A stretch of DNA of 64,000 bases. It comes from a virus. The DNA is taken from positions 1 to 64,000 of IMG/VR virus record IMGVR_UViG_3300011013_000001; one strand, given 5' to 3'. A program made the translations under genes and the position numbers. Under the pieces are notes generated by a model that was not told the origin of the DNA, ran no database searches, and saw nothing but the letters and a program-made list of their open reading frames with translations. This document shows, one piece after another, positions 5,050 to 25,511 of this stretch. The first letter of the stretch is position 1; the number at the start of each line of letters is the position of its first letter.

Positions 5050-5050
5050 T

Positions 5051-5440: not shown

Positions 5441-5441
5441 C

Positions 5442-7298
5442 TCACCATCTCCTAAACCGTTTCGCTACACCCTTCGGTGACCCCATCTCGTGTGCGCGAG
5501 AGCGTAACAATCTAACAATACTTCCGGCGATTACTGCCGGAATTACGCCTGTGCGTGGGGTTGGAGCGCCTGAGAGGGTGAAAGTCGTGGCGCTAGCGAC
5601 AGTCGCCTCGTGCTGACACGCTTCGCCTGTATCTCCGTCATGGATGCTGATTTCTATTAGCCCTGTCTGAGGGAACCCGGCAGTGCTGCCCACTGTCAGC
5701 GTAGCCCCAACAAGAGTTGTAGCGGCCGTGTACGGGCTACCGTTCGCGCCGCCCAGCGCACCACGCACGCTGCTCGCAGCATCAGTTCGGAAAACCGTGC
5801 CGCCCGTAGTAGCGACAATCTTCCGCACGCCGAGCAGGAATCCGGCATGAATATCAGGAGCAGTATTATTGAGAGTAATCGGTTCAACCGTGACAGCGCT
5901 GTGCACACGCGCCCGCTTGCCAAGAACATGCCGAATGCTACCAACCATCCTGACGTTCAGGCGAGCGCGGCCGATACCCGACACGTCTTTTGTTATGATT
6001 TGCAGACCACGGTCAGGCTGAGCATCTTCTGCTAACAGTTCCTGACCTTCACCAAACGCCTGAAGCACTCCTTCAAGCCCTTGCTGATACGAAGCGAATT
6101 GGAATGACGAAGTATGCTTAGACAGAATATGAGAAGCCTCAATGACCGCCACTTTCGCGTTCTGTTTGTCTACCGGGTTTTGGTACTCAACCACCTCTCC
6201 TGCACTCAAATCCCACGATTTAACGTGCTTCTTGGACCGAAAAGTCCCTTGTGCCTTCCTGTTGGACCGTAGTAATTGGTTGGCAGACCGGCGCGCTTTA
6301 CGCTCAGTAGTAGCAGTCGGGTCGGTCACTTCTTCCTGTTTGATATGCCCGTGTTTCTTTTGCAGTTCCGCGTCATCAACCACTATGACGATGTCGTCAT
6401 TGTTCGCCTGTCTGACCCCTGTCACCATCAGTCTGTTAGCCACGTCTGTAATCGGGTCGGCTTCAGACTCGCCCATACCTTGAGACTGTCCGACCACCCT
6501 GTCGGTATGCGCGAACACTTTAGGCGTATACAGAAAGTTACCGAACCGGTCGTAGAACAACCCGTAGCCGTCATGCCGAGCGATGAACCGGAGCGCTGTC
6601 GGAATCCTCACGCCTCGGAAGTTCTGCGAAAGGAAAGTGAGAGAGTGGCGTGCTATGTCTGCTCCTTTGTAAGACGACACGGTGCCGGCTCTCGGTCCTG
6701 AAAACGAGTTGCCGACACTGACTGAGTTCAGACCGTGCAACTTGTCGGTGAACAGGCGTTGGGTCAAATCTGTTGTTCTGAACCCTACGCCTACTTTCTG
6801 TCCTAACCTGATATGGGTTTCATCACCGAACTGAATATCAGCGAGCGACCGCCCTTTCATGTTCTGCAAGTTCAGGCGTGTCCCTTTGGTGGCCGACTCT
6901 ACGCTTTTCGCTTTGAGCCGGTTCACCGGTTCAGATTCAGCGTAAGCGAGTAGCGGCGGTTGGTCACCCGTAATCAGTTTCCCGCCGGTGAAATACACCT
7001 GACCCTCACGGTCCACTCCTGCTTTGTCAGCGTGAGTCAGGCGAACAGCAGACTGTTCTTCCGTGAATCGGTAACGCCTGTCGTGAGTCATTTGGAAATC
7101 CGATTGAGTCGGTGGTTTAACCTGTAATTTGCGACCGCTGACAGCGTCATCATCGCGCCGGTATTCGGCGTGAAGCACCGCGTTGTCCACGAATACGGGC
7201 GTTTCCACGCTTGACTTGACGGTATCTTGTACGTTGTCAAGCCGAGCGCGAGGCGAGTAAGCACGCGAAGGACCGGGCGCAGGCGGGACATACGGCAT
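5442..7298 (-). CDS. putative tail hub / baseplate-type protein
   Basis: 618-aa ORF downstream of the giant fibre gene. The segment IARHDGYGLFYDRFGNFLYTP resembles the conserved core of gpD/gp27/Tal-type hub proteins. This is recalled from memory and not verified. Confidence 0.45.
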   Translation of the reverse strand: MPYVPPAPGPSRAYSPRARLDNVQDTVKSSVETPVFVDNAVLHAEYRRDDDAVSGRKLQVKPPTQSDFQMTHDRRYRFTEEQSAVRLTHADKAGVDREGQVYFTGGKLITGDQPPLLAYAESEPVNRLKAKSVESATKGTRLNLQNMKGRSLADIQFGDETHIRLGQKVGVGFRTTDLTQRLFTDKLHGLNSVSVGNSFSGPRAGTVSSYKGADIARHSLTFLSQNFRGVRIPTALRFIARHDGYGLFYDRFGNFLYTPKVFAHTDRVVGQSQGMGESEADPITDVANRLMVTGVRQANNDDIVIVVDDAELQKKHGHIKQEEVTDPTATTERKARRSANQLLRSNRKAQGTFRSKKHVKSWDLSAGEVVEYQNPVDKQNAKVAVIEASHILSKHTSSFQFASYQQGLEGVLQAFGEGQELLAEDAQPDRGLQIITKDVSGIGRARLNVRMVGSIRHVLGKRARVHSAVTVEPITLNNTAPDIHAGFLLGVRKIVATTGGTVFRTDAASSVRGALGGANGSPYTAATTLVGATLTVGSTAGFPQTGLIEISIHDGDTGEACQHEATVASATTFTLSGAPTPRTGVIPAVIAGSIVRLLRSRAHEMGSPKGVAKRFRRW

Positions 7299-7630
7299 TA
7301 GTTATCCCCCATCCCTTTGTGTTCAGGACATTCACCCCATTCAGAAATATCCCCATGCGGGTCATTAGGTGGCAATTGTTCCACTTTGTATGGTTCGCTT
7401 TCGGGGGGACAGTGCATACAATACCACGACAATTCACCTTGATTGGCTCTGGAATCTTGGATACACTCAAGACAAGACCACTCTCGCGGTGCTCTCTCGC
7501 GCCCGCATTCGTTTATACAAGGCTCTCCGGTAGGTTGGTCTAATGGTTCTTCACTATGGGCTACATATTCTTCACCCGTATCTTTATCATGGGTTTTCAA
7601 CACGCGCCAAGCGGTATCTATTGGATTCAA
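7298..7630 (-). CDS. Zn-finger protein with N-terminal MNPIDTAWRVLK tag
   Basis: 110-aa ORF. Its TTG start overlaps the giant ORF's TGA stop (TTGA), 3 nt after GAGGTGAATAA. Three CxxC pairs. The N-terminus is nearly identical to that of 33780-34889. Confidence 0.7.
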   Translation of the reverse strand: MNPIDTAWRVLKTHDKDTGEEYVAHSEEPLDQPTGEPCINECGRERAPREWSCLECIQDSRANQGELSWYCMHCPPESEPYKVEQLPPNDPHGDISEWGECPEHKGMGDN

Positions 7631-10600
7631 TTATTCACCTCGCTATAATCGTCGCTAACCTCGCCTGAATGGTCGCCGGTATTGAACTTCGTGCCGGGAT
7701 GGGTTGTTTGCGAATGACGCGGCTGAACCGAGTAGTCCGGTCGTACCACTACGTCATCGTCTTCTGTCAGGGTCGCCTGTCGCCGCGGCGCGTCCGAGCG
7801 GTAATGTTGGAGTGTGTTAGCGCTGACGATTAGGCGAGCGACAGTCTGTCGCAGGCTGAGACTGAATCCGGCAGATTGTGCCCCGGGTATGAACGGCCCT
7901 ACGCTGACAGGAGCAGTAAGGCTCACCGCAGGGTCTACGAAATAGACAGGGGCGTACGGTGGATTGGTCGGTGAAGGAGCGGCCGTAAGCAGATAATCCT
8001 CAACGCGAGCACCGGGAGCATCGTATACAAACACACCGTACCGGCCGCCAGCAGTAGCACTGAAATAATTTTTCTCGTCTTGCGGCGAAGCGACAGCGAC
8101 TCGCCGTGCGTGCCTGAACACAGACACGTAACGGTGGTCAAGCACGCTAACAGGTCGCAAGAGTAGGCGTAATTGTTTGTCAGTATTATTAGTCCGGCCC
8201 GTGAACGGGTCGTGGTCAGGTGTCTGATACGGGTTGCTCGTGCGCCACGAAGTTGTAGCGTGCAAAACTCCGTATTTGGTAGCGAGATAGCCTTCAATTT
8301 CTAACCGCTCGGCCGCTGTTAATTCTCGGTCATAGAAAATAACTTCTGCAATATCTCCGTTCAAAAAGAACGAAGCGGGGACATTCCCTACCGTAAATGG
8401 TCCGCTATCGGCTTTCCAAAACGGTTGATTGACAGCAGACACAAGCGAGCCGTCAACCCACATTGATACATCTGCGTTGCCGCCTACACCATCCCCGTTA
8501 GCGATTTGAGCCGTAGTGAGATATGCCTGATTGAGAGTAATACTCGGCCCGATTATCGTGCCCCATGAAGTATCTTGACCCCACCAAAACTCCCACCTGT
8601 CGCTTGCTCCACTCATATTGGCATAGAAATTGTAACCTGACCTTGTGACAGGCGAAGACGCCCTACTCTCAATCGTGCCTTGAAAATTAGCGTTATCGGT
8701 GGTAACGGCACTTACCACAAACACCGTGAACTCGGTAGGGTTGAGGTCAGCATCAAACGGTATTTCCATTTTGTCGTTACCGTCACAACGGACAACAGGC
8801 CGGTTATTGAAATCGGCATCAGAAGCAGCATAGGTTGGTTGCGCGCTTCCTGTCGCTTGAACGGCATGACGCCCGTTCCCGCTTGAATCATCCCACTGCG
8901 CTAACGCAGCACCATCAGCCACTCCTTTGATTGCATCGGCCTTAAGCCACAACTGCATACCCGATTGAGGGATTTGCGCGCCCCAATTAGCATCGCTCAC
9001 CGGTTCCATGTAGTTACCAAGGTCAAGAATATAATTGCCGCCGAGCGGGTTGATTCCGTCAGTCAGTGACAGTTTCATCACGTCGTCCGTATCGGTACTG
9101 AAATCAAGAGAAGTCAGGTCGTAGTCTATCGCTACCGTGTACCGCTGACCAACACTCCTGTCTGTATGCAGGCTTAGAGCGTGAGTCCCTTGAACCACGT
9201 AAGCGCGGTCGGCATCACCTGTTGCTTCACCGACCGTCATACCGTCAAGACCGATTCGTGGTGAGATTCGGGCTATTGCTTCTTGGATGAATGCTCCGCC
9301 CGAGAGGAAATCCGTCTCGGCTTCTTCTACATTTAGGCCACTCATGGCTTCAGGTTTCAGCAAGCCTTCCTCGTTGTTTATTCCGAGCCTGCGACTAATT
9401 CCTACGGGCAGGTCGGTGCTACTGATAGCATCGTTAGTGGGCCGTAATAGCCCGGTAGTGAACGGAGGTTCAGCGGTATGATGACTGAGCACCATCCCGA
9501 TTGGGCGTATTGGAATACTGACGTCTTGTAGCACATTCTCGTTAAACGCTGTGCTCCACCTACAACCGCGACCATCACCCCTGTCTCCGACTCGCATCGC
9601 AGAAGGAGGGTTGAACCAATCTACTAAATCTTCAACACCAGCCCCACGATTAGTCCGATTATCTACCCCTTCGGTAAGCGATGGTAGAGCGAAATGAGAG
9701 CGGTCACGATACAAATTGTTAGCGGACGGGTCGTTGCTCGGCAGGGCATAAGCATCTTCCGGGTCCCAAGACGGACGGATTCCGAACCCTCTTACAGGGA
9801 ACTTGCGCACGTCTTCGCCTGTAGTGTTACCCCACCAATCTACCACGTAGAACATGTTAGCAGGAGCGAGGTTGCGCTTGTCTGTACTCATGATACTATT
9901 GACACCAACAAACACATCGCCGGGATGCAGTCGCTTAGCGGTAGTAGGATTGACGATGTTGCGCACAGGGCACCCGAACGGACGAGTCATTCGCCTGCCG
10001 TCAGAATACCTAACTTGGTGCCCGCGAACGTCTGCTCCGAGTAGCGCAGAAGCGTTCGTCTGCCGCTCGGTGACACCGGCATTCGTAGGACCGAGTGTGA
10101 AATCAGCAAGACCGTCCTCACCTTCGTAAGTCCAATCACCGTCATCATGTTGCACGAGTGGGCCGTGTTCATATCCACCGTGCGGGAAATCAAACGAGCC
10201 GCCAATCCCTTTCGCTACTTGGATAGCCCAACGCGGTCGGTTGTATGGCTGGCGAACTGCAAACCGGTGGCCGAAGCAGTATTGCCTGTGATACGCATAG
10301 GTGGCATCGGACCCGCTATACACGGTAGCGACATCAGTTTGATTGATTGTAGTACCGTGAGCATCACCGTTCACCCAAACCTTACAGTCGTCCATTTGCA
10401 GATTCTGTTCGCCCCAGCCTCTATACACGTCTCCCCAATGGTCTAGCCGACTCGCCTGTGCTCCGTAGCGAGAACCGCCCGGCCAGTAGTTAGAGAGGTG
10501 GTAGGTCCGTCCGTCCACTCCACCTTCCGCCGGCGTAGTAGGGTCCAATGCTTCAGGAGCCACAGGCGCTCCTGTGCCGGGCGTACTGCTTGTTGTTTTC

Positions 10601-13600
10601 ATTCTCAAACCGAGTGGACCATTACTGACAGCATAGGTGAACTCGTGATAATGAACCATCTCAAAGAACTCAGGTAAGTGATTGAGCGGTTGTTCAAGGA
10701 ACGCCGGTGAGTCCGCGTTAGGTCTGCTACTGTCAGAATGGAACGTGTACGGGCGTCCGAGATTCGGGTGCCACTTTACAAGAAACGCGTCAGCCATGTG
10801 CAGACTGTTAGTATCACGTGTACCGTGAAGCAATTGAGGCAGGTTGCGTGTAGCGACACTTTTCCGCGAATCGGTATACACTTCGCCGGCATCGTAGTTA
10901 TGGAAATTGGAAGTCAGGCGTATCTTCGCCCCGGCCACCGCTTCTGTCCAAAATAGCACATCTTGCGGCACTACTCCTTCAAACCTGCTAGTGTTCTCCG
11001 TACCAAGACCGACACCTCCACCTGACGTATACCCCCTATTGGTGTATACTGCGAACAGTTTACGACCCTCGCGCGTCACCAACTCAAGTTGCGCTCCATA
11101 GTAATCGGCACCGACTAGCGGGAACAGGTCATTGTTGTCAACCACTACTCGGGAATTACCCATATCTACACTGACTACGGTGCATACAGGCGACAGCGCG
11201 CTGTAATCACCTGTATACGCGTCGTAGAAATGAGTCGGATAACCTGCGAGAGTGATTTGGCTACCGATGGCTCCGAGTGTAGACCGGCAGAAGTGATAGT
11301 ATTGGTCAGGATGATAATGCTCAACACCTTTCCATGGTGAAGGGTTCACTAATCCGAATGGGTCATTGAGCGTGTTAGCCCACCATGGAACGGTGAGGGT
11401 ATAACCCGGTGTCGCTCGCCTGAACATACCGGGGTGATAGGGCAACGACCGGCGCGTGAACGCAGGGCTACTACTCTCATTGACACCAAGCGGGTTGAAA
11501 GTAGCGAGAGGCGGTAGCGTGGCGAACTGTTGACCCGGCGCAGGGTCAATATCTAGCATGGTCTCGTTGAGATAGATTTCGCAACCTCGCACGTCTGCTC
11601 CTATCGCTTCGGCGAGAATCAGACCGATGCCACCGTTAGTTTGCCCGTTGTCGTCATCAATGCCGATTACCGTAGCGACCTGCTGACCTGTGAGGAACGG
11701 TACAAGTGTGTTGAAAGTAGAAGTTGCAGGGTCAAATGGTGGCAGGTCGCTGACCGCATTAGTGTTCTGATGGAACCCGACAAGTTGTTGAGCGTAAACG
11801 TTGGGCTGAATGACAATCTGATACGCCCCAACCTCCATCGGGTCGGGGAAATTAGGAGTGAGAGTGTAGTCTTTAGCCGCTTCTAGATAAACTAGATGCG
11901 ACCCTTTGCTGTTCTGTGTACCGGCGACCCCGTCACTCGCGAGGATTCCATAACCGTCGTACCGAATCTTAGTCTCGGTGAGCAGAGTAAAGGCCCCTCC
12001 GTGGACATCTGATGGAGCATAGTTTGCTGTCAGCCCGCTGAACCAAAGCACCGGGTCTCGTACAGGTAAGGCTGCAAGCGCCGCCGCTAAGGGTGCCCCT
12101 GTTAATCCCGCTATGCTTGCTTCTACTGTTGGATGCGCTGCCGTTGAACAAGCGTAGTGGTTAGTGTACAAGCGCTGGTATAACGGGTGAGCGAAATGTC
12201 CCGGTAGCATAGCCATTGTCGGTGTAACGAAATGGTGACCCATGCGTGGTAGCGGTACAGGCGTGAGAGTATTCTCGGTCAGAATATCGTGAGGTGATTT
12301 GGTGCCAAGAGGTTGCGCTCCTTTGACCTGATTCCATTTTGATAGCGGCATATCAGGAGACTCGCCGCTCAGTTCTGAATGGTCGCGCATGCGCCGAGCG
12401 GCGAAGAACCGGTTGCTACCTGCGGGTACGAAGAATGAGGGTTTAACAGAATCGTTGGCGGTAGCGCTGAATCCGGGAGCGAATACCACTCCGGTAAACT
12501 GCGAGCCTGATACGCCTGTATACGAAGCGATGACTCCGTTCACGCTCAAGAACCACCGACTGCTAGACTGTTCAGCCGCAGGTGTCCACACTCTCTCATC
12601 AATAACTTCGTTGACGGTAAGAGTCGTAGTGGTGCTACTAGCGAACGTAAGAGGATTACTTGTCACGTCAACGTCTACTGTAGAACCTGCAAAGTCGTGG
12701 GTATGGTATTTCACCGGCTCACGTTCGCTTGCCGAATACCCTACTTGGGTCACATGGAAATACAGGCTTCTGTCATGCTGCTCGTAAGCGGTACGCAACG
12801 GAGCGTCATTGGTAGCGTTACGCCACCCGTCAGGTGAATTATCGGGGAAATTGTCAGGGTCAGAATCAATATGGTCCCAAGCGTTGTTCTCCCAAGTCGG
12901 CCATACGCGCGGCCCTTCGTTGGTATTATCAAAAGAACGCTTGACAAGGTCTTCAGCGTCACCGGAGCGTTGCATTCCACCGGTCCCGATACTCTCGTTT
13001 TGGTACGCCTGTGCTCTGTCAAACCCTGAGCGAACGATGATATTGCCGGGGATAGTGTCAGGGTCAGGCAACCGTATTTTCATGTTCGGGGCGTTACCGC
13101 TCCCGGCTTCTGATGGAGCGAGACCTTCAACGTCTCTATCGCTCACAAGTTCAAAGTCACGGATTATAGTACCGAACGGGGACCCGCCCTCAATCACGTG
13201 AGTTTGGCCCGTGTCATCAATCACACTCAGTCTCTCAAACTGTAACTCTTCGTTTGGTATCTCTAACACGTTGCGAACCTCAAACGGGAACAGTTCAGCA
13301 ACTTGTGGATGAGCGAGTTCCTGCGCTTGGATTATCGGGTACATGGCGGCATTTGTGGTTTCAAAAGTAAACCGGTTGTTCCCTAGAACCTTCTCTCCGG
13401 TCTGAATCGCTACACCGCCCTTTACCCGAGTGATAAACGGAACTGCTCCAAGCCCGCGAGCGTTAGAGGCGGGTAACGATAAGTTGCCGCCATCCATTCT
13501 TTTCCATACTACGTGCTGTGTGGTGAAGTTCCACGCGGCGGATAACGACTGCCAAAACGTGAACGGGTTAGTATCAGCATCATTCACGCCCGTAATTCCA

Positions 13601-16600
13601 GCGCAGGTGCGATTGAGAGTCTTGCCACTCATTCCACTGATTTCGGTATCAGCGTAGAAATGCGCTCCCGGGTTTATATCAGTATCAAAGAACAGGTCGC
13701 CCGTAGGGAACAGGCAAGACTCCATCAGTAGCAAATCACCCGGGTCGTCAACAGGGTCGTTCCACGGCAAGTTTTCAGTCGTGGTATCAGGAGGAGCCTG
13801 CCCGTTAACCCATAACGCTTCCACGTTCGGGCCACCGTGAGCCGGTGCAGTGTAACGGTCAGCGTTATGGATTTCAGCATCCCATAGTGTAGTCCCCATC
13901 TGTTCAGCAGTTCCTACTCCACCATCGCCCCAACGGAACGCGATTAGGTCGCCCGTACAGGACACACCGTTCCGGTCAAACTTCGCGACAAGCGGTAACT
14001 CGCTTTCGTGTGACACTACTACGTAGTGGCGAGGATGAACACCGTGCGGGCAATCGGTAGGCACAGGGGTATACTGTACTGAATTATCCGGCCCTCCTTC
14101 TACTGTCACGAGCGCGCCCGATTTTGAATGACAAGCGTTTGAGACCCCGTAAGGCGTAAACCCGAGAGCAGCATGCCACGCGCTTTTCCCTGCGGCTACA
14201 CCGAGACTACCGTCCGGGTTAGTAATTAGTAGACTATTAAGATAGGAATACCGCTCGCCGCCCCAGCCGATACTACCGATAGGCCGCGTCCGGTCAACAG
14301 CGTTTACTGCTCCGTTGAAATGGACTTGAGTAGCAGCCAAATGGTCGAAAATCGTATCAGTCCTTGTAGCAAGATGGCTACCATACTGAGTGTTTAGAGC
14401 GTCTTGCGCCCCGTTTGACCACCGTAGGTTGCCTGTCTTAGTCCAGCAGTATACCTTGTATGTCCCACCCGGTGGCGGTAGTACAGTCAAACCTGACGCA
14501 ACTCCGGCGACTGTTGGGTCTTCTAGATATGGGAGATTGGATTTTCTGTTGTTGTCTAACAGGAATGCGTAATTCCCTAACGCGTGGTCAATGTGGACGC
14601 CATAATAATAGCCGTAAAATCCACGGTCCGTCACACCGGCTGTCGGTGTATCATCTGCTATACGAATCCAACCGTAAGCAGGCACGCTGTCAGGTATGTA
14701 AGGTACTTGGACAAATCCTTGAGTGGTGGGTGTATCTTGAGTCAGGTATTGACCGAAATCCATCTCCAACCATGAATACCTGTCCTGTTGAGACGAACTG
14801 CCGAATGACGGAGCGAAGGTGCCACCGAGAGCCTTGAGTGCTGCTGAACCGGGATAAGTATTGATACTGCCCGCTATGACCGCTCCTAACTCTTCTGCGT
14901 TTTGTACGCGAGTAGCGTCTATGACAATCACGTTATCATCAGCATTGAGAGACAGGGTAGCGTCGTAGTCTGTAATGAGTTGAGCGCACCCGCGATAGAT
15001 GGAAGCATTATCTCCGATTTTTGTACCGGTAATAGGTGAGAGTTGACGTGGAGCGACTGTATTAGTAGTCACGGGATGAACAGGGTTCAGGCGGATACTG
15101 TTGTCAAAGAAATGACCACCTGCCGGGTAGCCACCGTCCATATGCCAAACCATGTTAGCGAGAATCTCGTCAGAATGAATCGGTACACCGTTAGTGAGAA
15201 CCCCGCCGTAGTCTACGAATGGGTGAGCATAACCTACCGAAGCAAGGTTAGCCGCTCCTCCGAAATGGTCGCTTGAGTATAGGGTGTTACCTACGCTTGC
15301 ATGGTTGTAGTTAGCATTAGGGAACCCGTGAGCCGTTTCCCAATTTACGAACGCTTTGAACGCTCCTGCATTTTGCGAAGTGAAAGCCCGGACGGGTGGT
15401 AGGTATTGGTCGGTACCGCCCCGGGTCAGTCCTGCCCAAGCGGTAGAATCGCCGTGAGATATTTCGTTAGGATGGAAAGCGGAGATTCGCGTACTCATAA
15501 AGAAATACATAGCGCTTGTAGGGTCGTAGTGGTACGCTTTAGTAGCGCTTGCTACACTCCATTTGACTGACGGTTCTACACCTGTTTCGCTCGCCTCACT
15601 CGCCCAATGTTTAGGGAACGCTTGGCCGGGTCCGAACACCACATAGGTCGTCTGCGGCGGGTCTGCTTGAGGCGTGTCAGTATAACGACCGTGAGGATGA
15701 GCAAAGCGGAGTAGGAGAGGGGACGGGCGCGTGACGTCTACATTACCATAAGGTTCGGTGTCAAGACCTGTATTCGGGTCTTTGCTATTGTTACCTTGAC
15801 CGTCCATATCAGGCGAGAGAGTTGTATCTTGGTTGGCGAATGGCGGGCTAACCTCCCCCTTGTGTTGGTCAAGCATACCTGTTCCGGGGAACATGGCGAG
15901 CATGGCTACCGTGTCTAAGATACAATGCGACCCCATGATTTCGTTAGCGTGCTGAATACCTGCTGTGCCTGTTGGTCCGCTTGAATACGGGTGAGTGTAG
16001 AATGAAGAGTAATCGTTCTGTGTCCCGTCGTTAATATCCAAAACTACTCCGCTAAACCCGCCACCGAAATACAACGGCACGCTATGGTCAGGCGAGTCTC
16101 GTGCTCCCCGGAAATAGGTAAACGGTTGCCCGAAAGGAGAACCCGTAAGCCTTGCCCCGTCAAATAGAATACTCCTGTCAGTCTCTCCCCATTTAGCCAG
16201 CGTGACTATTGTAACCGGGGAAGTACCACCCGGTCCGGGCATGATTTCTGTCATCAGGATAGTAGTAGTGGTAGCACCGCTCGGTGGTTTGTCAAAGATG
16301 GCTGTCCGGTCATCGGTAACGAATATGTGCTGGAAGTTGCCGGCTACCGTGTCCTGCCCTGCTTTCGGTTCACCCTCAAACGACACGCGGTCGTTGAACC
16401 AAACGCGCGTAAGTGGGGCGTAAGACAAATCAGTGACAAGTCCCCCGAAATCAGGAGTGCCGGTTCCTAAATCCGAACCATGCCGACCGACAGGATTCAA
16501 CCAAAACAGACTCATACCCGGATTACCACCGACAGGCTGAGGCCGCAAAGACAACGACCACACGTTACCGGCTACTGCTGCAAATCCGTCTTCCACCTCA

Positions 16601-19600
16601 AAAACTGCGTTTTCTACGGAAGGCGTAACATGGTCGCCAGCGTATCGTGTGAACTTTTCTCCGCGCAGGTTCTTCTTCCAAGTGGTTAGGTCCACTACGT
16701 TGTCGTGACTATCAATCAAGACAGGCGTGGCTGTATTAGCATTAGTCCCACGATATTTAGTAGTGATGTGGAGAAGAGTGCGTGGTACATAACCTGTATC
16801 CAATCTCTTGTTTACGTCAACCTCAGCGCGTGTTAACCCGCCAAGATGCGTATTCTCAAACACTCCTACGCCTGAAGTTGAAGCAGCGACAGCACTATTC
16901 AAACTACCCGCGTACAACCCCCAATCAGGCTGTCTATCAACCTCAAATAGGTCACGAAGCGGTATCACTTCATGCTTGTCGCTATACGCCTGAACACGTA
17001 TAGCCGATTCGCTGACACCCCATTCTCCAAACGTACGACCATCAGGGGCATGTAAATCCCTACAATCAAACGTGGTCTCGGCGACCTTATCGCTGTTAGG
17101 GTCAATGCTCATAGCGTGTTCAACGACAGCGGCGAGCAGTTCATCGGTGACAAGAGTAGTTTGATTCAACACGGGTGAGATGACGACAGGTGCCCTAGTA
17201 GCATCATTAATTGTAAGCGGGCCAGCCTCAGTCGCGGCAGTAAATAGTGTTGTTAGAGATTCACCTGTAACTCCATAAAATGAATGCTGTCCACCGCGCG
17301 TGTTATGAGTACGGTGAGTATAATGGAACACGTGACCGATGGTATCAACGGTCGTTCCTACGCTATGGGTTAGCCAAATCATACCGCTGTCAGGGAACCC
17401 GAGATGACCGAGTACATCAACTCCGTCAGGAATGTCATGCCAAATCCCGTCAGTGTGATACCCAAGCGCTGCTCCGTTAGCGAGCGGAAGAACGGTATCA
17501 GTTAAGTTGGCGAAATCAAGAGTGACGGCGTACGCTCCTTCAGGCACGTGTAGCCCACTGAACAAGTTACCCTTCCATGCTTGAGCGGCACCTGTAAATC
17601 CTGACGTAATACGCCCAATCGCGTCACCGCTACCTGATATACGATTACCAAGAGAGAACCCACCTTGTCCTACATCACGGTCGTCCATCCATACTATAAT
17701 CTCATTCTCAATGGATGACGGTAGTTTCGTGTTATCGTTAGCGAAGCGTTTTCCATACTGCCGGTAAAGGAATCTAATTGTATGCCGGCGACCGAGATGG
17801 TCAATGAATCGCATACCGTAAATCGGCCGGTCGCCGATAGTATCATCTTTCTCGTCTAAAGCGACATAGGTATTGTATGAACTCGCCCCACCCGTCAAAC
17901 CATAGATGTTGGAGAACCGTTCCGAGTCGTGCCCTTCAATACCGAGACCCCATCTGCCAGCATCGGGTGACCAACCGGGTACACCGCTCGCCACAAGTCC
18001 ACCGAAATTGATTCGGGCACGAGCGCGCGTCCCCACCCGTAGTCCTTCAATGAGCGTACGGTTTTCCTGCTGACTCTCAAATGACTCGTTATTATTAGTA
18101 TTAGAAGACCGACCGGACGGCACTTCGTCGTTAAGGGTCCCCGCGTCAGTCAACGATGTTCCACCGCTTACCGGTTCCCCGTTGAACTCGTCAGCGTACC
18201 CAAGATGATTGTTAGAAGAAAACTCGTCACCCGTTTCTTCCGGTGGCAAGTATTCACGGAGAGTAGTGATAGGGGCGAACGGTCGTCCTTGCTTGTTAAT
18301 CGGCATTGGTGCAGGATGCATGTTTTCACCAAGAAGTTCATCAGGCTGACACCAAAAGTTCCTGAATCGGCCCCCGTGTCCTACCAAGAACTGAGGCTTG
18401 TAAGGAGCCTGCGCTCGGCTATTATCCATCCATACAGCGAAATTGCGCCCGGTAGCGCCCGGTACAGTACTATGAATTACGAGAGTGAATCCTTCCACTC
18501 CGTCCACGTCTTCAACAACTCTACCGATATGCGCTCGCATGTACCCCATGTGGCTACCACGGTCAAAAGAGGAGAACGCAGTATCATCCCAAAACGGCGC
18601 GGGGTCGTGAGTGCTACCGGTGACAGCGAAATCCGCCCGGTGGTGCGGAGCGGTAGGGTCAGACAACTGTTCGCTGTCAGGGCTGTTAGCCGACCTGTTT
18701 GTCCCTTGCTTAGTAATATCAAATCGCTCGCTTTCGCCCGGATATTGGTCGGCAGGTCTACGCTGACTACTACGACCATTCAGTGCCCCCGCTTGGTTGA
18801 TGAGACGGACCACTTCACGAGCCGCCGCTTCAATATCAGTTACTCCTTCCTTAACTCCAACTTCCCCTAAATCCAGTTTCAGGCGTCTGACAAAATCCAT
18901 CTGAGACCAATGCGGTAGGTGCTGTAAACGGGTTTCAGCGTGATTACTCAAATCAAGAGTACCACTCCGTTTACCTTTGAGAGCGAGAAAAGCAGGGATA
19001 GCGCGCGTGCCATCGGGTGTATCAAAGAAAGTGGATTGGAACGGGTAAGCATCAGAATCGTTATTCCAGACCTTTTGTGCTTCAGTAGCGATACCCCCAT
19101 GGTCAATACTACCTTTGAGCAGACTACGAGCGTGTCTATCGTCAGCGGCCCCGGGACAGCAGACTGAATTATCAGTCCTGTCTATTGAGCCGGAAGTAAG
19201 ACACTGTGTCCCATCATTAATAGTAAGGAAATTAGGCGCTTGCCTCTCTTTGACAAACGCTGCGTTAAACGAGTTAGACGCCGGCGTATCCACGAGGTAC
19301 CACGACCGGTGAGAATACGCGCTCTCCATGAACTCTGATTTACCTATATTAGTAATCATTAGGTCGTTGCCGACCGGCGAAGTACCACCAATGTCAGTCT
19401 GACTTGTGACGGTAGTCGGGTAAAGGCTGTCACGGTCACGGCGTTGGCTCTTGAACCCGCTCGCTACATCTAAATCCTCAACTCTCATTTCTTTCTGTCC
19501 GCTCTGAACCTGCATCCAAAGGTCTTGGAACGATACTGCTTCGCGGTCGTGCGCTACATCATAAAGCAACACGCGGGCGTGTTCCTGAGTGGAGAGATAC

Positions 19601-22600
19601 GGGTCAACGTAAGCGATGACAGGCGCAGTGTCGCTTCGTCCCAGTGATGTCCAATTCAGTTCAATGGTCTTGTTCACGTGCTGCGCGTAGTTACGAGCAG
19701 TAGTCAAGCAATCGTCACCAATAAGGAAGTTCTCAAGAGCGATACTGTCCCTCGCTTGGTATTCTGTATTTGAGCGTCCGTCATTGAATCCTGCCCAAAC
19801 TTCAAACTCGTTGAACACCCCTCGTGATTTAGCGAAGATACCTTCAATGGCGTGCGGATTCGTATAGTGCATGTTCATCCAAACAGTATCACCGCCCCGC
19901 AATCCGCCCGGAGCGTATGGGTTATTCCAAGTGGCGTTACATAACCCATCTTCAATTCGTTGAGGGAAGACGCTAGTTGAAACTGAATCTATAGACCGGA
20001 TGACCATTTCGTCCTCGGCGACTAAGGGAGTCGGAGCGCCTGAGTCAAGCACAGGATGAGCGACAATAGTCACTTCTGTCGCTTGCCCAAACGTAGCCGC
20101 AGTCTTGTCAACTTCCATAGCATAGATTTGCCCGTTGCTTTCGTTGACCACCGTATAGGCGTACGTGGCTCCAAACTCGTGCATAGCGCTGAAAGAAACA
20201 GCGTCAGGGTCGTTGACATAATAGATATTACCACCCGGATTAGAAGTGATGGAGAACTTCTGCCCGCCACTCTTTATACGAGGCAAGTGAGGGTTTTCGC
20301 GCGGACCTGCTTTGAACTCTATCGCAGAAACGTATTGCCGTAATCCGTAGTCTACATTCCCACCTTGAGTCTGAACGTTCGCCCTATCATGGTAGTAGGG
20401 CCGCCTGAACTCGCGTTTAGTGGAAGTAGTATAACCATCATCACCAATAATGCTTAGAGCATCGTTGGAGTATTCACCGGCAGGAGATATATGAGTACCA
20501 ACAGTAGCATGTTTTAGGAAGTTCTTGGAAGTGGCGCTGTCCACCCCTCCAAGCGTGTCTATTTGGAGATACCCGTCAGCGACAGGGTCGTTTCTATACC
20601 AACACCATTCTCCGTTAGCGAGATATGCTCGGCGTTTTCTTAGACTGTTGTCCATCTCGCGTACTTCTCCTGTAGATGAAGCGGAGTAAGACGAGTCGGG
20701 GAACACCTGAATATCCTCAACATAGATTCTGTAATTTGAAGGGTCAAACGGTCTGTTGATTTTGGTACTCTTACGATGCTTGTCGTTAATCCAAGTGAAA
20801 TGATACGCCCCCATTACTTCTCGGTCGGCTGGCGCGAAATCGTCGCACCTACGACCGACAGGATTAGGCGACCACGAGTGAGCAGTCATAGTGGCATCAA
20901 GCGTTAGTTTCAGCGAGTTGTCAGGACCGGGGAATACGCCGTTGTCTCTGTCTTCAAAGAAGTGGTAAGGGAAGAGAGGGATTTCCGCTAACGCGCGGGT
21001 GGAAGCGTATTGGGTGCCGAGTTGATAGTCATGGTTCACACTACGCAGTGATTGGAATAACCGGTCGTTAGCAGTAGTCCCGTCAGCGCACAACGCTCCG
21101 TCATTGAACAGATTGTCCACTAAGAACTGTGTCCCGGTTACAACATTATTAGTAGCAATCCACACAGAGTAATCTTCAGACTCGCTCCCGTCAGCGTTCA
21201 GGAACACACCTGTCCCTGTCTGAGTAGTCCCATCAAACGAAAAAGTGGTAGCCGTTTTACTAGAATAAGCAGCACTCGCTCCGCTAGCGAGGTACACACG
21301 CCCGACTTCAGGAAAACAGTAAGTCCCCCAAGAAGCGAGAGCGGTGCTATTATTGTTCAGAGGAGCGACCGTGATAGTAGAAAACGGTACGGCGGGTGCA
21401 CCGACAGTTGTAGCACTCGCTGTACAATCGCGGCGCGTAGACCACCCGAGTCTGCTGAGTGGTGAAGGGTCAAAGGTAGGTTTGGTATTCACTGCCCCTT
21501 GACCGGGTCCGCCGAGCGTGACAGTGACCACAGGCGCGCCCGGCATGATTTCCTTAATCGGGTGAGAGTCAGGCGAACCGTCTCCGGTAAAATCAGCGTT
21601 TACATTGACGTCATCCATCAACCCTCTACAATCAAAAATCAGACGGCGACCTAAAGCATCACTCGCTATATCAACGCTTGACACTCTACCTCTCACTTGT
21701 AGGAACTCAAGCGAGATATGGTTAGCATCGTCACTCGCGTCCGACAGTCCTTCTGCCTTAGCCAACTGCATTACGCGCGAACGTGAACTCGGTTGTACAA
21801 TGAACACATGTTCGCCCCTGTCTCTATAATTATCAATTACGTCAAAGACTTCGTGAACGTGAGATGAATGGTTGTTAGCGGCAACGTCAAACGCTCCGCT
21901 TGTGTTATCATTGTCTATCCTTGGAGTCTGACGGAAATAGGTTGGAGCGACGTCAACCGGCGGGTCGGGTAGACCACGATTGGCAGGCCGCATCACTATT
22001 CTGTTGTAGACTGATGGGTGAGCAGGATTAAGTGAATGTGAAGCATCAACCCCTTGCGGCGGCTGATTACCCGGGTCGGTGGCGCGTACAGGCGTATGGT
22101 TAGCAGGAAGCAGACTTTCGTCTAACTCAATCTCGTACTGCTGTCCGCCTGTGTTATCACCGACAAGGCGATGAGGTTTGAGTGAATCGTTAGAATCCCC
22201 TGCCTCTTTCTCCGTAACCCGAATCATGCCACCCGGCGCGTGAAGAGTCATCCCGCTACCAATTGCTGCTGCAATATGCGCTGCTACCGATTGACCACCG
22301 ATAACTGAACCACCGCTTGGTACGGTTTTCTCTATTAGCAGTACAGGCCCACCCGCTCCCATTTTAGACCCTGTCAGGTCAACTGCGTTATAGTGGATTT
22401 GAACGTAAGGAGCGGCGGGGGCGAGAGTGGGGACTTCAAGGATAGCGATTCGTGATTCGGTTTCAGGAGCGAGATGCAGGTCGTATACGTTATCGGTATT
22501 GAGTATACTCTCAGCAGCATGCCCTTTGAGCAGGAACGGGCGAACGTCAAAGTTAGAGCCACCTATCGCTATAATTTCTCTATTACGTTCAGCACTCGTA

Positions 22601-24264
22601 GCGGCAGTAGTATGCCCGTTTTCAACTATTTCTGTAACCATACTGTTAGTTTTCGTAGCGAGAATCTTACCGATGAATGCTCTGCGGTGCAGAGATACTT
22701 GAGAATTGATAGGCACTTGGTCTTTCATTCCGATAGACTGCGCGTCAAAGTGCACGCTGAAATGGTCAGCCGCTCCGTCAACTGTTTTGGTCACGATTTC
22801 TTCTTGAGCATCAGGGAACACTCGTAGGAACGGGTGACCATTCCGCTGACTATACTTGTGCCGAGCGGTATGCCCTTCTTTAAATCGGTCGTTAAGAACG
22901 GACGGCCAAGCGGCCGCATCAAACGGATTTTTCGTTTGCCCTATTGAGAGTTTGCGAGAGAATACTATACCGTGGTTCAGGCTACCACTTTCGTCTATCA
23001 CCATTTGACCTGTCCTGTCAATCATTTGGGTAGCGATACCCGGTGGTCGGTAAGGCGCACCCGTACCGCTATCAACAAGTAAGTCTCCTTTGACGAGCAC
23101 TACGAGACTATCGTTAGCAAGATTGTTAGTGGTATCAAACGCTGTACGAGCGTGCAGTACTCCGCGCGCCCCTGAAGGCGCAGTATCAAAATCAAGATGA
23201 ATGCTGTTAACGGTTAAATCACCGTTGGTCGCTACGTTCAGCAATCGCACCCGCTCAGGCGGACTGAGGTTAGCCTGTCCTGTTTTAACGTCGCATATTG
23301 TAGGATTGATTAGAAGATTGTAAGAAGTATGAGCGATGTTCTGCTTACCGGTAGGGGTTGATACTTGGTAGTTCCCAAGACCGTAGTCTGTCGCTACGTC
23401 TAACGTACTACTGAAATCTGTCAAACCTGTGATGGTTTCGTATAGAGTTTGAGCGGCGGTTGCGCCGATATTGATAGTAGTAGCACCTTCTGCCACGTTC
23501 GCCTGAATATGAAAATCCGTTTGGTCTACTTCTACCGGTTCTTCAAACCGCCATAACCCGATAGAGTCAGTTCCAGCGATTAATGGCAACGGGCGGACCT
23601 GCTCGTCCGTCCCTCTCCGCCAATGAACCGACTCAATATATCCTCTGAAATCCGACCCGATATACAAATCGTTCTCATTCATTCTAAGGTCATGCCGTTT
23701 ATTGAGTTTGGTTGACGCTACGAGTTCGCCGTTCACGTACACCTTAACGAGTCGGCCGTCAAACGACCCTACTATGTGCAACAACTCGCGCGTGTTTTCG
23801 TTAAGGCAATTGCCCGATTGCATGAAAGAAGCATTGTCCCGTGGGTACACGATTCCGTCCCAACCGACTTGAGTGCCTGCTACTATTACGGGCGTGGCGC
23901 TCACCGCCCCAAACGTCTTCTTGATTCCTTCATCAGACACATGCACATTGAACGAGACCGGTCCCGGCTCACCAATAGCCCCGATTCGTAACTCAAACAA
24001 GTCTTCCTTGACTACGACCACTCCACCGTGGTCAGGCGCTACCCATGCTTCTATACTGAACGATTCAAGAACTTGAGCCACATCTCGTTTGTATGTTCGG
24101 GAAAACCCGTTCACCTGACCGGTGGTCGTGCCGGACGAGCGTGCGCCGTTATCCAATTTGAGACCCGTTCGCTCAAACCCTGATTGAGGGACTACTATAC
24201 CGTCAGCGACTCCATTAAAGAATAGGGTATTGCTGGTTTTTCCAATCAGAGTCATGTGAATCAC
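7627..24264 (-). CDS. giant 5545-aa tail fibre/adhesin-like protein with LamG (concanavalin-A-like lectin) domains at both ends
   Basis: Uninterrupted 16.6-kb ORF. The N-terminal region (~23615-24235) reads [13 protein letters not shown]...SIEAWV...[22 protein letters not shown]...[17 protein letters not shown]. The C-terminal region (~8265-8960) reads QLWLKAD...[11 protein letters not shown]...PTY...FTVFVV...[33 protein letters not shown]. Both match LamG_3-type signatures. Located after the TMP and Dit-like genes. Confidence 0.9.
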   Translation of the reverse strand: [5545 protein letters not shown]

Positions 24265-25511
24265 AATCCCATAATCAAATCTATCGGTTGGAATGTCAGT
24301 TCAGCAGAATACGTAGTTTCCGCTCCGTTATAACTGAAATTACACTGAACGATGGTCCCTCTAATCCCTGTCAGCATATCACGCGAATCAAAAATAGTGG
24401 ACGCGGGGTTCACGTTCCCGGTGGCGTTTTGGTTATCGGGAGAAGTTATCCCTGTAACGATTAAGAAATTACGAGCGGCGTAACCGAGCGGGAGCAAATC
24501 TGTGCCTGTAGTTGAGTGTAATAGAGAACTGTAAGGCAGTTGAAGCCCCACGATATAGTCGTCTTGCGCTCCGCGTAGAGAGAGATTGACGTCAGCATCA
24601 AAACCACCTTTGTCGGTTTCTCCTTTGAATACATTGAATGCCCCACCGAGCGCTCCACCGATGTTTGAGTTGGCGACATTAGCGATTAGGTCTTGCATTT
24701 TATCGCCGGCGCTTTTACAGGAATGGGTGGAAGAACCACCGTTGAACGTTTCCCAACTCGGTACTAGCAATTTTTCTTCGTCTTCATCTGTCCAAAACAA
24801 AGGCGTACCGGAGTTACCGTTCAGGCCAGTCTCAGTCTGTGTAAGAGTGATTAGACAATTCCCGAATCCCTCGTTCTTCCCGGTAGTTAGTGCCCCAACA
24901 GTAAACGCGTCGCTAAAATCTGTACTACCTGCTGCACTTGTCAAGTCAGGCACGAACGCTCCGAGATGAGCGGTGAACGCTGTATGAACAGCGGTAGCGA
25001 GTGCTGCCCCGGAATCTGCCACACCGGACAGGCCAACTGTGAGAATAGTCGTAGCAGCACTACTCGCTGCGGGTAACACGCTTGTATCAAACAGAACAGT
25101 GATGGGTACAATACTTTGAGTGACTTGATGAGTCGTACGGATAGAGAACGATTTGCCGTTCAGATTGGCTATGGTGACCGGTCCTCCATCATCAAGCATG
25201 AACCCGTCTGTAGCATCTTCATCACCCGTAGCCTCAAACACGGACGCTACACTGAAATCAATAGCCGCCCCTGCCGCTGATGGTGCTTTGGCTGTACCTG
25301 AGCAATCGTCATCGGTAAGTACACAATTCATCCGAATATCAACAGACACCGTATTCATATCCACACCGATTCGCTCACCGAGCGCAGGTACAGGTATAGC
25401 GGCTACCGACCGATTAATTGAGAAATTGTAGTCAGTACAGTGTAAATTAATCAAATCCCCGTTGCGCTGGACTAGCCGTATCGGTATTCCACCACTCGTG
25501 CTAGTACCCAT
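24261..25511 (-). CDS. putative distal tail protein (Dit-like)
   Basis: 416-aa ORF immediately downstream of the tape measure. Function assigned by synteny only. Confidence 0.55.
   Translation of the reverse strand: MGTSTSGGIPIRLVQRNGDLINLHCTDYNFSINRSVAAIPVPALGERIGVDMNTVSVDIRMNCVLTDDDCSGTAKAPSAAGAAIDFSVASVFEATGDEDATDGFMLDDGGPVTIANLNGKSFSIRTTHQVTQSIVPITVLFDTSVLPAASSAATTILTVGLSGVADSGAALATAVHTAFTAHLGAFVPDLTSAAGSTDFSDAFTVGALTTGKNEGFGNCLITLTQTETGLNGNSGTPLFWTDEDEEKLLVPSWETFNGGSSTHSCKSAGDKMQDLIANVANSNIGGALGGAFNVFKGETDKGGFDADVNLSLRGAQDDYIVGLQLPYSSLLHSTTGTDLLPLGYAARNFLIVTGITSPDNQNATGNVNPASTIFDSRDMLTGIRGTIVQCNFSYNGAETTYSAELTFQPIDLIMGL

What the first reader, a model, noticed from the sequence alone, without database searches (positions are those of the whole stretch)
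7627..24264. Single 5545-aa (16.6 kb) tail-module ORF with a LamG lectin-like domain at each end
One uninterrupted ORF occupies about a quarter of the window, in the slot normally held by Tal/fibre genes after the TMP and Dit genes. I recognise ConA/LamG-type domains at the extreme N-terminus (~23615-24235) and near the C-terminus (~8265-8960). The ~4900 aa between them match nothing I can name. Proteins this large are rare in tailed viruses. This one may be a fused baseplate/fibre/adhesin, or may carry enzymatic (depolymerase) domains.
Basis: partly seen in the sequence, partly recalled or inferred. Interest (0 to 1): 0.7.

Follow-up and report, generated by a model that had tools for sequence, protein, structure and literature searches.

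The report
Giant fused tail-tip protein, archaeal virus
The 16.6-kb gene is real and encodes a 600-kDa, non-repetitive tail-tip protein of a marine archaeal virus (a magrovirus), made by joining three tail genes end to end; it carries sugar-binding-type (LamG) modules that probably attach the virus to its uncultured host.

Summary
One ORF (7627-24264, minus strand; likely start ATG 24255, 5542 aa, 601 kDa) has LamG/ConA-like domains at aa 67-208 and aa 5162-5319. It is not a sequencing artefact. About 35 independent viral contigs carry an uninterrupted 5100-5690-codon homologue, and dN/dS is 0.05-0.12 along the whole length.

The window is a magrovirus-like tailed virus of marine Poseidoniales archaea.

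The protein is a fusion. In sister lineages the same collinear sequence is split into three genes: A ~850 aa, B ~1700 aa and C ~2500-3200 aa. One lineage has two genes (AB|C). In the split lineages C is fused at its C-terminus to the hub-like protein (Phage-tail_3, YQBQ-like and GTA-megatron-like hits). In the window that protein is the separate 618-aa gene downstream.

I read the giant as the peripheral, host-binding part of a threefold tail-tip complex. The conserved C-terminus would face the hub. The N-terminal ~800 aa is the faster-diverging end. The C-terminal LamG is a swappable cassette.

About 4900 aa match nothing: no repeats, no Pfam, PHROG, NCBIfam or PDB hit, and no Foldseek hit where tested. 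I found no evidence of an enzyme domain. The literature mentions such a protein once, as function unknown.

The parts
7627..24264 (-). Giant ORF: 5545 codons from the GTG, including the stop at 7627-7629. The probable start is ATG 24255, giving 5542 aa and 601 kDa.
22900..24255 (-). Module A (aa 4 to ~455). It is a separate 800-885-aa gene in lineages L084, L085 and L087.
   Evidence: Profile mapping: A proteins match giant aa 6-453.
23641..24066 (-). N-terminal LamG/ConA-like domain (aa 67-208). It is present in all full-length homologues.
   Evidence: Pfam PF13385, E 7.5e-7, above the cut-off. Six of 13 homologues also hit it. Conserved N-terminal FNG[VI]xD motif.
14575..22899 (-). Module B (aa ~456 to ~3230). 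It is a separate 1594-1940-aa gene in sister lineages. It holds the most conserved blocks (aa 1871-2006 and 2726-2788). The B|C boundary is approximate (aa ~3170-3300).
   Evidence: AF2 is confident only for aa ~2070-2550, and no fold match was found.
7630..14574 (-). Module C (aa ~3231-5545). It is a separate 2532-3194-aa gene in sister lineages, where it also carries the hub-like domain at its C-terminus.
8260..8979 (-). C-terminal LamG cassette (aa 5096-5335; Pfam hit at 8308-8781). It is an insertion present in only 4 of 35 full-length relatives and is exchanged independently of its flanks.
   Evidence: L034 vs L040: flanks 92% identical, cassette 38%. Lectin-fold matches.
7630..8259 (-). 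Conserved C-terminal domain (aa 5336-5545), ending in the family motif NTGDHSGE. It has the lowest dN in two of the three pairs compared.
7298..7630 (-). 110-aa Cys-rich small ORF (CxxxC, CxxC, CxxC). It overlaps the giant's stop codon and the start of the next gene. It has no counterpart in the nine related loci compared.
5442..7298 (-). 618-aa hub-like protein ('D'). It is homologous to the C-terminal ~450 aa of the C proteins of the split lineages.
   Evidence: Pfam Phage-tail_3 (24.5 bits, cut-off 23) and YQBQ-like. Weak NCBIfam GTA_megatron hit on the central domain. BLASTP E 8e-30, 8e-23 and 4e-13 to L084, L085 and L087 C proteins.
24261..25511 (-). 416-aa conserved gene between the TMP-like gene and the giant. 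It is a Dit candidate by position only.
   Evidence: Conserved synteny and 24-39% identity in all related loci. No family hit.
25513..27213 (-). 566-aa tape-measure-like protein.
   Evidence: PHROG TMP families, E 2e-7. NCBIfam RcGTA_tape, E 1.4e-4.
27210..27883 (-). Tail-assembly-chaperone-like pair of overlapping ORFs (125 aa and 139 aa; the second is in the -1 frame). The slippery heptamer CCCTTTG lies at 27509-27515.
28222..30177 (-). 651-aa tail-tube-like protein.
   Evidence: Pfam Phage_tube_2, E 5.9e-11.

Best explanation
The ORF encodes a virion tail-tip (baseplate) megaprotein of a magrovirus-type tailed virus of marine Poseidoniales archaea. It is a head-to-tail fusion of three tail genes, A, B and C. 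In sister lineages these are separate or differently fused.

Proposed mechanism (inferred): the conserved C-terminal part associates with the trimeric gp27/megatron-like hub protein, which is the 618-aa product of 5442-7298. The hub caps the tail below the tape measure. Three copies of the giant would then form a peripheral structure of about 1.8 MDa around the tip. The N-terminal LamG module, the swappable C-terminal LamG cassette and, in relatives, other cassettes would bind host envelope glycans. That binding would position the hub for opening and DNA delivery.

Shown here: the gene is real, under selection and widespread. It lies in the tail module. It shows fusion and fission with the hub-like gene. 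It has LamG domains, and the C-terminal one behaves as an exchangeable cassette.

Inferred only: presence in the virion, trimer stoichiometry, orientation, and glycan binding.
For: The ORF is real:
- 351 IMG/VR stretches encode relatives. About 35 contigs hold an intact 5100-5690-codon ORF.
- A 6079-codon ORF occurs in L088.
- The exhaustive HMMER search lists family members of 5136-6311 aa.
- dN/dS is 0.006-0.2 in every 400-codon window of three close pairs.

Virus and host:
- The MCP is 35% identical to Druskaviridae, as reported for magroviruses (PMC5434244).
- A related contig carries a thermosome and an ERCC4 gene.
- A relative lies on a 106-kb contig of a Poseidoniales assembly, AG-422-I20.

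Tail context:
- The gene order is tube-like gene, chaperone pair with -1 slippery site, TMP-like gene, 416-aa gene, giant, hub-like gene.

Fusion and fission:
- The observed architectures are A|B|C-D (L084, L085, L087), AB|C (L092) and ABC|D (window). All are collinear with the giant's profile.

Adhesion modules:
- Two LamG domains are present.
- The C-terminal one folds like the cyanopodophage Pan3 tailspike, the PilC lectin module, CBM40 and the trans-sialidase lectin domain.
- It is swapped independently of its flanks.
- Relatives have other sporadic cassettes, including a beta-propeller-like insert of ~316 aa.

Polarity:
- The C-terminal 1000 aa is the most conserved part among close relatives.
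- The N-terminal ~800 aa shows elevated dN and dS in two of three pairs, which suggests recombination.
Against: - There is no direct evidence that the protein is in virions. No member of this virus group is cultured.
- The giant itself has no recognisable hub, fibre, Ig or beta-helix domain.
- AF2 models are poor (mean pLDDT 60.6 and 42.7). Fold absence was therefore tested properly only for aa ~2070-2550.
- The hub-family hits of the 618-aa protein are weak. Phage-tail_3 is just above its cut-off, and the GTA_megatron hit has E 0.009.
- LamG folds also occur in enzymes.
- Even conservation over 5.5 kaa is unlike typical receptor-binding proteins, whose tips are hypervariable.
- The Poseidoniales link comes from a relative only 32% identical, not from this window's lineage.
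Confidence: 0.7

Rival explanations
1. The protein is a tail-associated enzyme, such as an envelope or S-layer depolymerase, peptidase or glycanase. One or more catalytic domains would be hidden in the unrecognised 4900 aa, with the LamG domains acting as substrate-binding modules. This is compatible with the main reading.
For: - The corresponding tail genes of HCTV-1 are annotated 'Endopeptidase tail' and 'poly-gamma-glutamate hydrolase'.
- There are 43 invariant His residues, including the cluster H4010, H4011, H4023, H4026. There is also an invariant D-x-N-D-G-x-x-N-D loop at aa 2743-2751.
- Foldseek neighbours of the LamG cassette include lectin domains of sialidases and tailspikes.
Against: - No catalytic family appeared in Pfam, PHROGs or NCBIfam, for the window protein or for the relatives scanned, 13 of them in Pfam.
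- PDB profile searches found nothing.
- Foldseek on aa 1751-2800 found nothing.
Confidence: 0.25
2. The giant is a polyprotein. It is translated as one chain and cleaved into A, B and C, which then act as separate baseplate subunits as in the split lineages.
For: - The A|B (~aa 455) and B|C (~aa 3170-3300) boundaries map onto gene boundaries of sister lineages.
- The B|C boundary also coincides with a poorly conserved, indel-prone stretch.
- A prohead protease is encoded at 37981-39369.
Against: - No protease domain or known autocleavage module (for example S74) was found in the giant.
- Several fusion states coexist in nature. This suggests a covalent link is tolerated and that cleavage is not required.
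Confidence: 0.2
3. The giant is an internal or ejected virion protein (a pilot, DNA-delivery or host-takeover protein like N4 vRNAP) rather than an external adhesin.
For: Very large virion proteins of some phages are ejected proteins (general knowledge). Most of the sequence has no assigned fold.
Against: - The gene lies after the TMP-like gene and is fused to a hub-like domain in relatives.
- It carries lectin-type modules with cassette swapping.
- No polymerase, nuclease or membrane segment was found. Only one marginal hydrophobic window exists.
Confidence: 0.05
4. The ORF is an artefact: several genes merged by sequencing or assembly errors, or a chimeric contig.
For: Two related assemblies are broken or shorter: L003 has 3556 + 2028 codons, and in L065 the longest open frame at the locus is 4424 codons.
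Against: - About 35 independent contigs from many samples hold intact ORFs.
- Similarity is collinear over the full length.
- dN/dS is far below 1 throughout.
Confidence: 0.01

Closest known systems
RcGTA baseplate protein 'megatron' (g15) and lambda gpJ-type central tail-tip proteins
   Same: - Both are multi-domain tail-tip proteins of non-contractile tails, encoded after the TMP and distal-tail genes.
- Megatron has adhesin-like and peripheral domains N-terminal to a gp27-like central domain, and it forms a threefold baseplate (PMC7296036).
- Here the hub-like domain (Phage-tail_3, with a weak GTA_megatron hit to positions 855-970, the central domain) follows the giant. In sister lineages it is fused to its C-terminus.
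   Different: - Megatron is 1304 aa. The N-terminal extension here is about 5500 aa, with no detectable similarity to megatron's peripheral domains.
- In the window the hub domain is a separate gene.
- The host is an archaeon without an outer membrane or peptidoglycan.
[quoted passage not shown] 2025 (PMC11706807); and Laminin_G_3 listed as an 'AMG' in four magrovirus groups, Xu et al. 2023 (PMC10160649)
   Same: It is very probably the same gene family: a large LamG-bearing gene in the morphogenetic module of Poseidoniales viruses.
   Different: - The papers give one sentence each. They report no anatomy, no fusion/fission, no link to the hub and no cassette behaviour.
- Calling it an auxiliary metabolic gene is not supported here.
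- Sequence identity could not be checked, because OR863078 is not in the collections.
Carbohydrate-binding modules on siphovirus baseplate proteins ('evolved' Dit/Tal and BppA of lactococcal phages; from general knowledge) and LamG-bearing structural proteins of marine siphophages (phrog_10356; S-CBS4, PA-SR01, vB_EliS_R6L)
   Same: Lectin-type modules are inserted as accessory cassettes in tail-tip proteins. The C-terminal cassette matches phrog_10356 (E 3.7e-19) and these phage proteins.
   Different: Those proteins are a few hundred to ~1000 aa long. Here the cassettes sit in a 5.5-kaa non-repetitive scaffold.
Giant archaeal adhesion proteins with LamG domains (nanohaloarchaeal SPEARE proteins of 5998-8553 aa; halomucin), PMC6642349
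   Same: They are of similar size and are used for contact with an archaeal cell surface. SPEARE proteins carry at least one laminin-G domain.
   Different: Those are cellular, membrane-anchored proteins with protease, toxin and nuclease domains. No sequence relation was found.

Membership tests
LamG / ConA-like lectin superfamily (Pfam PF13385 Laminin_G_3) | Profile score above the curated cut-off | tested here: met
   aa 67-208 scores 29.8 bits and aa 5162-5319 scores 30.7 bits, against a cut-off of 27.6.
LamG / ConA-like lectin superfamily (Pfam PF13385 Laminin_G_3) | Beta-sandwich jelly-roll fold | tested here: met
   This holds for the C-terminal domain only. The AF2 region has pLDDT 50-87 and is all-beta. 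Foldseek matches lectin-type folds at E 3e-6 to 1e-3. The N-terminal domain was not modelled.
LamG / ConA-like lectin superfamily (Pfam PF13385 Laminin_G_3) | Sugar or Ca2+ binding | not testable with these tools
   This needs glycan arrays or structures.
Tal / baseplate hub (gp27-like; Phage-tail_3; GTA megatron central domain) | gp27-like hub domain within the protein | tested here: not met
   The giant has no such hit. The domain is in the next gene, 5442-7298. Foldseek covered only aa 1751-2800 and 4396-5545.
Tape measure protein | A long, mostly helical protein directly after the frameshifted chaperone pair | tested here: not met
   That slot is held by the 566-aa gene. The modelled parts of the giant are mixed alpha/beta, and the protein is rich in G, T, S and D.
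Tailspike depolymerase (parallel beta-helix) | Beta-helix or pectate-lyase-type catalytic domain | tested here: inconclusive
   No Pfam, PHROG or PDB hit anywhere. No Foldseek hit for aa 1751-2800. About 3300 aa were never modelled, and much of what was modelled has low confidence.
Repetitive giant adhesins (arrays of Ig, cadherin, FN3 or similar domains) | Tandem repeated domains | tested here: not met
   Self-BLASTP finds no internal match. hhalign of 16 blocks against each other gives a maximum probability of 21%.
Magrovirus (order Magrovirales) large LamG protein | Lies in the morphogenetic module of a Poseidoniales-associated tailed virus whose head genes resemble Druskaviridae | tested here: met
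   - MCP is 35% identical to HCTV-1 and HVTV-1.
- A ligase-like domain lies in the head module.
- Related contigs carry a thermosome gene or come from a Poseidoniales assembly.
- Direct comparison with named magrovirus genomes was not possible.

The most novel reading that the evidence does not exclude
The protein is a 'single-chain baseplate'. A complete host-adsorption and envelope-penetration apparatus, normally built from many small subunits, would here be encoded as one ~5500-aa chain of about ten unique domains with previously unseen folds. This would include the machinery that breaches the Poseidoniales envelope. Its fusion and fission states across lineages would record how multi-protein tail tips are assembled and re-partitioned in evolution.
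Probability: 0.2. Interest if true: 0.85.

Novelty: new variant of a known kind. Interest (0 to 1): 0.6.

Why it matters
[quoted passage not shown] Neither they nor their Poseidoniales hosts are cultured, and nothing is known about how they recognise cells.

This one gene takes 16.6 kb of genomes reported as roughly 90-110 kb. It is under strong purifying selection over its full length. It is, as far as I know, among the largest proteins of any prokaryotic virus.

The work here defines its module boundaries, its link to the hub and its exchangeable lectin cassettes. These give concrete handles for tagging hosts with recombinant LamG modules, for interpreting viromes and for structural work. 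The ~4900 aa without sequence relatives, and without fold relatives where tested, is a likely source of new protein folds.

Tried and rejected
Searches that found nothing useful:
- Megablast and tblastn of the gene against 50,697 phage records gave nothing for aa 1-3000. For aa 2701-5545 only LamG-region hits appeared.
- An exact-protein lookup of the MCP found nothing.
- Profile searches of both halves against PDB sequences found nothing at E<=1.
- The 618-aa and 416-aa neighbours gave only chance hits against PDB sequences.
- The exhaustive profile search of 1.84 billion representatives found only the family itself, 112 clusters.
- Pfam on the inserted cassettes of relatives recognised only LamG.
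- OR863078 (magrovirus_A_01) is not in the collections.

Structure prediction:
- AF2 of aa 1751-2800 was usable only for aa ~2070-2550. Foldseek then returned no PDB match below E=1, and in BFVD only a family member.
- AF2 of aa 4396-5545 failed outside the LamG cassette.

Failed calls:
- Queries over 5000 aa, or a 4891-aa query, failed.

Hypotheses considered and rejected:
- TMP: the TMP-like gene is the 566-aa one.
- Intein-containing gene: no Hint or LAGLIDADG hit.
- Repeat adhesin: no repeats.
- Auxiliary metabolic gene, as labelled in PMC10160649: the tail-module position and the fusion to the hub argue against it.

Full report
**1. Observation**

The window has one ORF at 7627..24264 on the minus strand, 5545 codons from a GTG. 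Its translation has a single terminal stop. Every homologue begins at the methionine at codon 4 with the conserved M..I.....AL.FNG[VI]SD motif. The real start is therefore probably ATG 24255, giving 5542 aa, 601 kDa and pI 5.15.

Pfam Laminin_G_3 hits aa 67-208 (E 7.5e-7) and aa 5162-5319 (E 4.1e-7). PHROGs recognises only the C-terminal LamG region (phrog_10356, 'virion structural protein', E 3.7e-19). NCBIfam finds nothing.

**2. Is it one gene?**

A pattern scan of IMG/VR found 351 stretches that encode relatives. Of the 80 loci kept, 35 hold the complete gene. In each of these the stop-to-stop frame is 5100-5690 codons without interruption.

- A MAG contig has a 6079-codon version.
- The exhaustive HMMER search lists members of 5136-6311 aa.
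- Similarity to the window protein is collinear over the full length, at 43-49% identity.
- In three closely related pairs, dN/dS is 0.05-0.12 overall and 0.006-0.2 in every 400-codon window.

Hidden stop codons or a non-coding stretch are therefore excluded, short of read mapping of this particular contig. Two related assemblies show a break or a shorter ORF (L003 and L065). I take these to be assembly or frameshift problems.

**3. What genome is this?**

All large ORFs lie on the minus strand. In transcription order they are:

- large terminase,
- an HNH-like gene,
- portal,
- a 1960-aa gene,
- prohead protease,
- major capsid protein,
- several unknown genes,
- a 651-aa tube-like protein,
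- an overlapping chaperone-like pair,
- a 566-aa TMP-like protein,
- a 416-aa protein,
- the giant,
- a 110-aa Cys-rich ORF,
- a 618-aa protein, followed by further conserved genes.

The capsid protein matches only haloarchaeal Druskaviridae (35% identity) and methanogen viruses. This is the pattern reported for magroviruses (33% identity to haloviruses; PMC5434244).

The 1960-aa head-module gene has a weak ATP-dependent ligase domain. This fits the reported ligase embedded in the magrovirus structural module.

Homologues of the giant come from marine metagenomes, many from <0.22 um Tara fractions. One related contig carries a thermosome and an ERCC4 nuclease.

The genome scan found a relative on a 106-kb contig of 'uncultured Candidatus Poseidoniales archaeon isolate AG-422-I20'. 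Other hits sit in MAGs labelled Parvibaculum, Maricaulis or Idiomarina. These are probably mis-binned viral contigs.

The window is therefore most likely a magrovirus-type virus of Poseidoniales. The host link rests on a distant relative (32% identity).

**4. Anatomy of the giant**

It has no internal repeats. Self-BLASTP finds nothing. Profile-profile comparison of 16 blocks against each other peaks at 21% probability. Even the two LamG domains are only ~19% identical.

Conservation is high along the whole chain. The peaks are at aa 900-1130, 1450-1600, 1750-2000, 2700-2800, 3600-3750, 4100-4300 and 4800-5050.

Between these blocks lie discrete indel sites where relatives carry extra modules. 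The sites are after aa 638, 773/787, 1385, 3242, 3617, 4057, 4561, 4634 and 4691. The insert after aa 4561 is ~316 aa with DGTK-type repeats that look like a beta-propeller; this is my reading, and Pfam does not confirm it.

The window's C-terminal LamG (aa 5096-5335) is itself such a cassette. Only 4 of 35 full-length relatives have it. A 75-80% identical relative lacks it. L034 and L040 are 92% identical in the flanks but only 38% identical in the cassette. So it is exchanged as a unit.

The protein has no membrane-like segment.

**5. The giant is a fusion**

In more distant lineages the same sequence is split, and the order is always the same.

- L084, L085/L086 and L087 have three abutting genes: A (800-885 aa), B (1675-1939 aa) and C (2532-3194 aa).
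- These follow a tube-like gene, a SAP-domain gene, a TMP-like gene and a ~420-aa gene.
- Against a profile of the full-length family, A maps to giant aa 6-453. B maps to aa 460-2788. C maps to aa ~3584-5526, which places the B|C boundary near aa 3170-3300.
- The Poseidoniales contig has two genes, AB (2217 aa) and C (2725 aa).
- LamG domains occur at other positions in these proteins.

The window's 618-aa protein is homologous to the last ~450 aa of the C proteins of the split lineages. BLASTP E-values are 8e-30, 8e-23 and 4e-13. The observed architectures are therefore A|B|C-D, AB|C and ABC|D.

The 618-aa protein hits Pfam Phage-tail_3 (above the cut-off) and YQBQ-like. It also hits, weakly, the central domain of the RcGTA 'megatron'. 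In RcGTA that domain is gp27-like, binds the distal tail protein and forms a threefold baseplate (PMC7296036).

The TMP-like gene also has a weak RcGTA tape-measure hit.

This pattern of gene fusion is the strongest evidence that the giant works in one complex with the tail hub.

**6. Structure**

Profiles of both halves find nothing among PDB sequences at E<=1.

AF2 of aa 1751-2800, using 59 sequences, gave mean pLDDT 60.6. It was confident only for aa ~2070-2550, a mix of short strands and helices. Foldseek found no PDB match below E=1. In BFVD it found only an unnamed member of the same family.

AF2 of aa 4396-5545, using 27 sequences, gave pLDDT 42.7 and folded only the LamG cassette. That cassette matches the following structures:

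- the cyanopodophage Pan3 tailspike (E 3e-6),
- the lectin module of the PilC pilin,
- the tetanus toxin HC domain,
- the trans-sialidase lectin domain,
- CBM40.

For most of the protein the fold is therefore unknown. The failure may reflect shallow alignments or obligate oligomeric folds. It is not proof of novelty.

**7. Polarity**

Among moderately close relatives the C-terminal ~1000 aa is the most conserved part (84-91% identity). In two of three close pairs it also has the lowest dN (0.002-0.007).

The N-terminal ~800 aa shows two- to four-fold higher dS and dN in two of three pairs. This points to recombinational exchange of that end.

The C-terminal fusion to the hub domain points the same way. 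Together these suggest that the C-terminus is proximal to the tail and the N-terminal LamG end is distal. This is an inference.

**8. Interpretation**

The best reading is a virion tail-tip megaprotein. It would be the greatly expanded peripheral and adhesin part of a megatron/gpJ-type threefold tail tip. It was produced by fusing three tail genes and is decorated with exchangeable lectin-type modules for host glycan binding.

Rivals:

- A hidden enzymatic domain cannot be excluded, but no search supports it. It is compatible with the main reading.
- Post-translational cleavage into A, B and C is possible but untested.
- An ejected internal protein is unlikely, given the gene position, the hub fusion and the lectin cassettes.
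- An artefact is excluded.

**9. Novelty**

The family has been noticed before. [quoted passage not shown] Xu et al. count Laminin_G_3 among magrovirus 'AMGs' (PMC10160649).

I found no description of its anatomy or role.

The kind of thing, a tail-tip adhesin or baseplate protein, is known. What is unusual is the scale of ~5.5 kaa, the lack of repeats, the lack of any recognisable fold outside LamG, and the documented fusion/fission series.

I rate it a new variant of a known kind, with interest 0.6.

Noticed in passing
window 27210-27883 (-): Two overlapping ORFs (125 aa at 27506-27883; 139 aa at 27210-27629, in the -1 frame) lie directly upstream of the TMP-like gene. The heptamer C_CCT_TTG at 27509-27515, just before the first ORF's stop, leads into the second frame. 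This looks like a classic tail-assembly-chaperone -1 frameshift in an archaeal virus.
   Followed up: partly
window 7298-7630 (-): A 110-aa Cys-rich ORF (CxxxC, CxxC, CxxC, zinc-ribbon-like) is wedged between the giant and the hub-like gene and overlaps both. In five related loci the two large genes abut or overlap directly, and no related locus gave a BLAST match to this ORF.
   Followed up: partly
window 39397-45279 (-): A 1960-aa gene lies between portal and prohead protease. Its only hit is a weak ATP-dependent DNA ligase domain (aa 1500-1630, E 0.0015). HCTV-1 has MuF-like and zeta-toxin-domain proteins in this slot. It is a second very large gene of unknown role.
   Followed up: no
window 48928-50424 (-): A 498-aa gene is inserted between large terminase and portal, with an HNH endonuclease-like region (aa 332-436). 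It is reminiscent of the nuclease reported inside magrovirus structural modules.
   Followed up: no
window 28222-30177 (-): The tail-tube-like protein is unusually long (651 aa; 650-850 aa in relatives). Only its C-terminal half matches Phage_tube_2, so the N-terminal ~350 aa is an unexplained extension.
   Followed up: no
L084, L085 (proteins B and C); insertion site after giant aa 773-793: A ~80-aa module occurs several times in the B and C proteins of the split lineages. It occurs once, at aa ~773-793, in most giant-lineage relatives. The window protein lacks it. Several other inserted cassettes share a '...A(I/L)xHxxGHNG...' helix-strand motif.
   Followed up: partly
L007, L016, L037, L052 (insert after giant aa 4561): A ~316-aa insert has four or more 'DGTK'-type repeats, which suggests a beta-propeller. 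It is present in only some relatives. Pfam does not recognise it.
   Followed up: partly
L088-L091; P0016; P0061: Contigs carrying this viral gene are deposited in MAGs named Parvibaculum, Maricaulis and Idiomarina, as well as Poseidoniales. The bacterial labels are probably binning errors.
   Followed up: no
window 2972-4705 (-) and 4702-5049 (-): Downstream tail-module genes include a 577-aa protein with a DnaJ-type CXXCXGXG zinc-finger-like motif (aa 287-312). There is also a 115-aa protein conserved in all related loci, including the split lineages.
   Followed up: no
giant aa 4006-4029 and 2743-2751 (window ~12178-12249 and ~16012-16038): An invariant His cluster (PRMGHH...PGHxAHP: H4010, H4011, H4023, H4026) and an invariant D-x-N-D-G-x-x-N-D loop are present. 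They could be metal-binding sites. AF2 did not model the loop region confidently, and the His cluster was not modelled at all.
   Followed up: no
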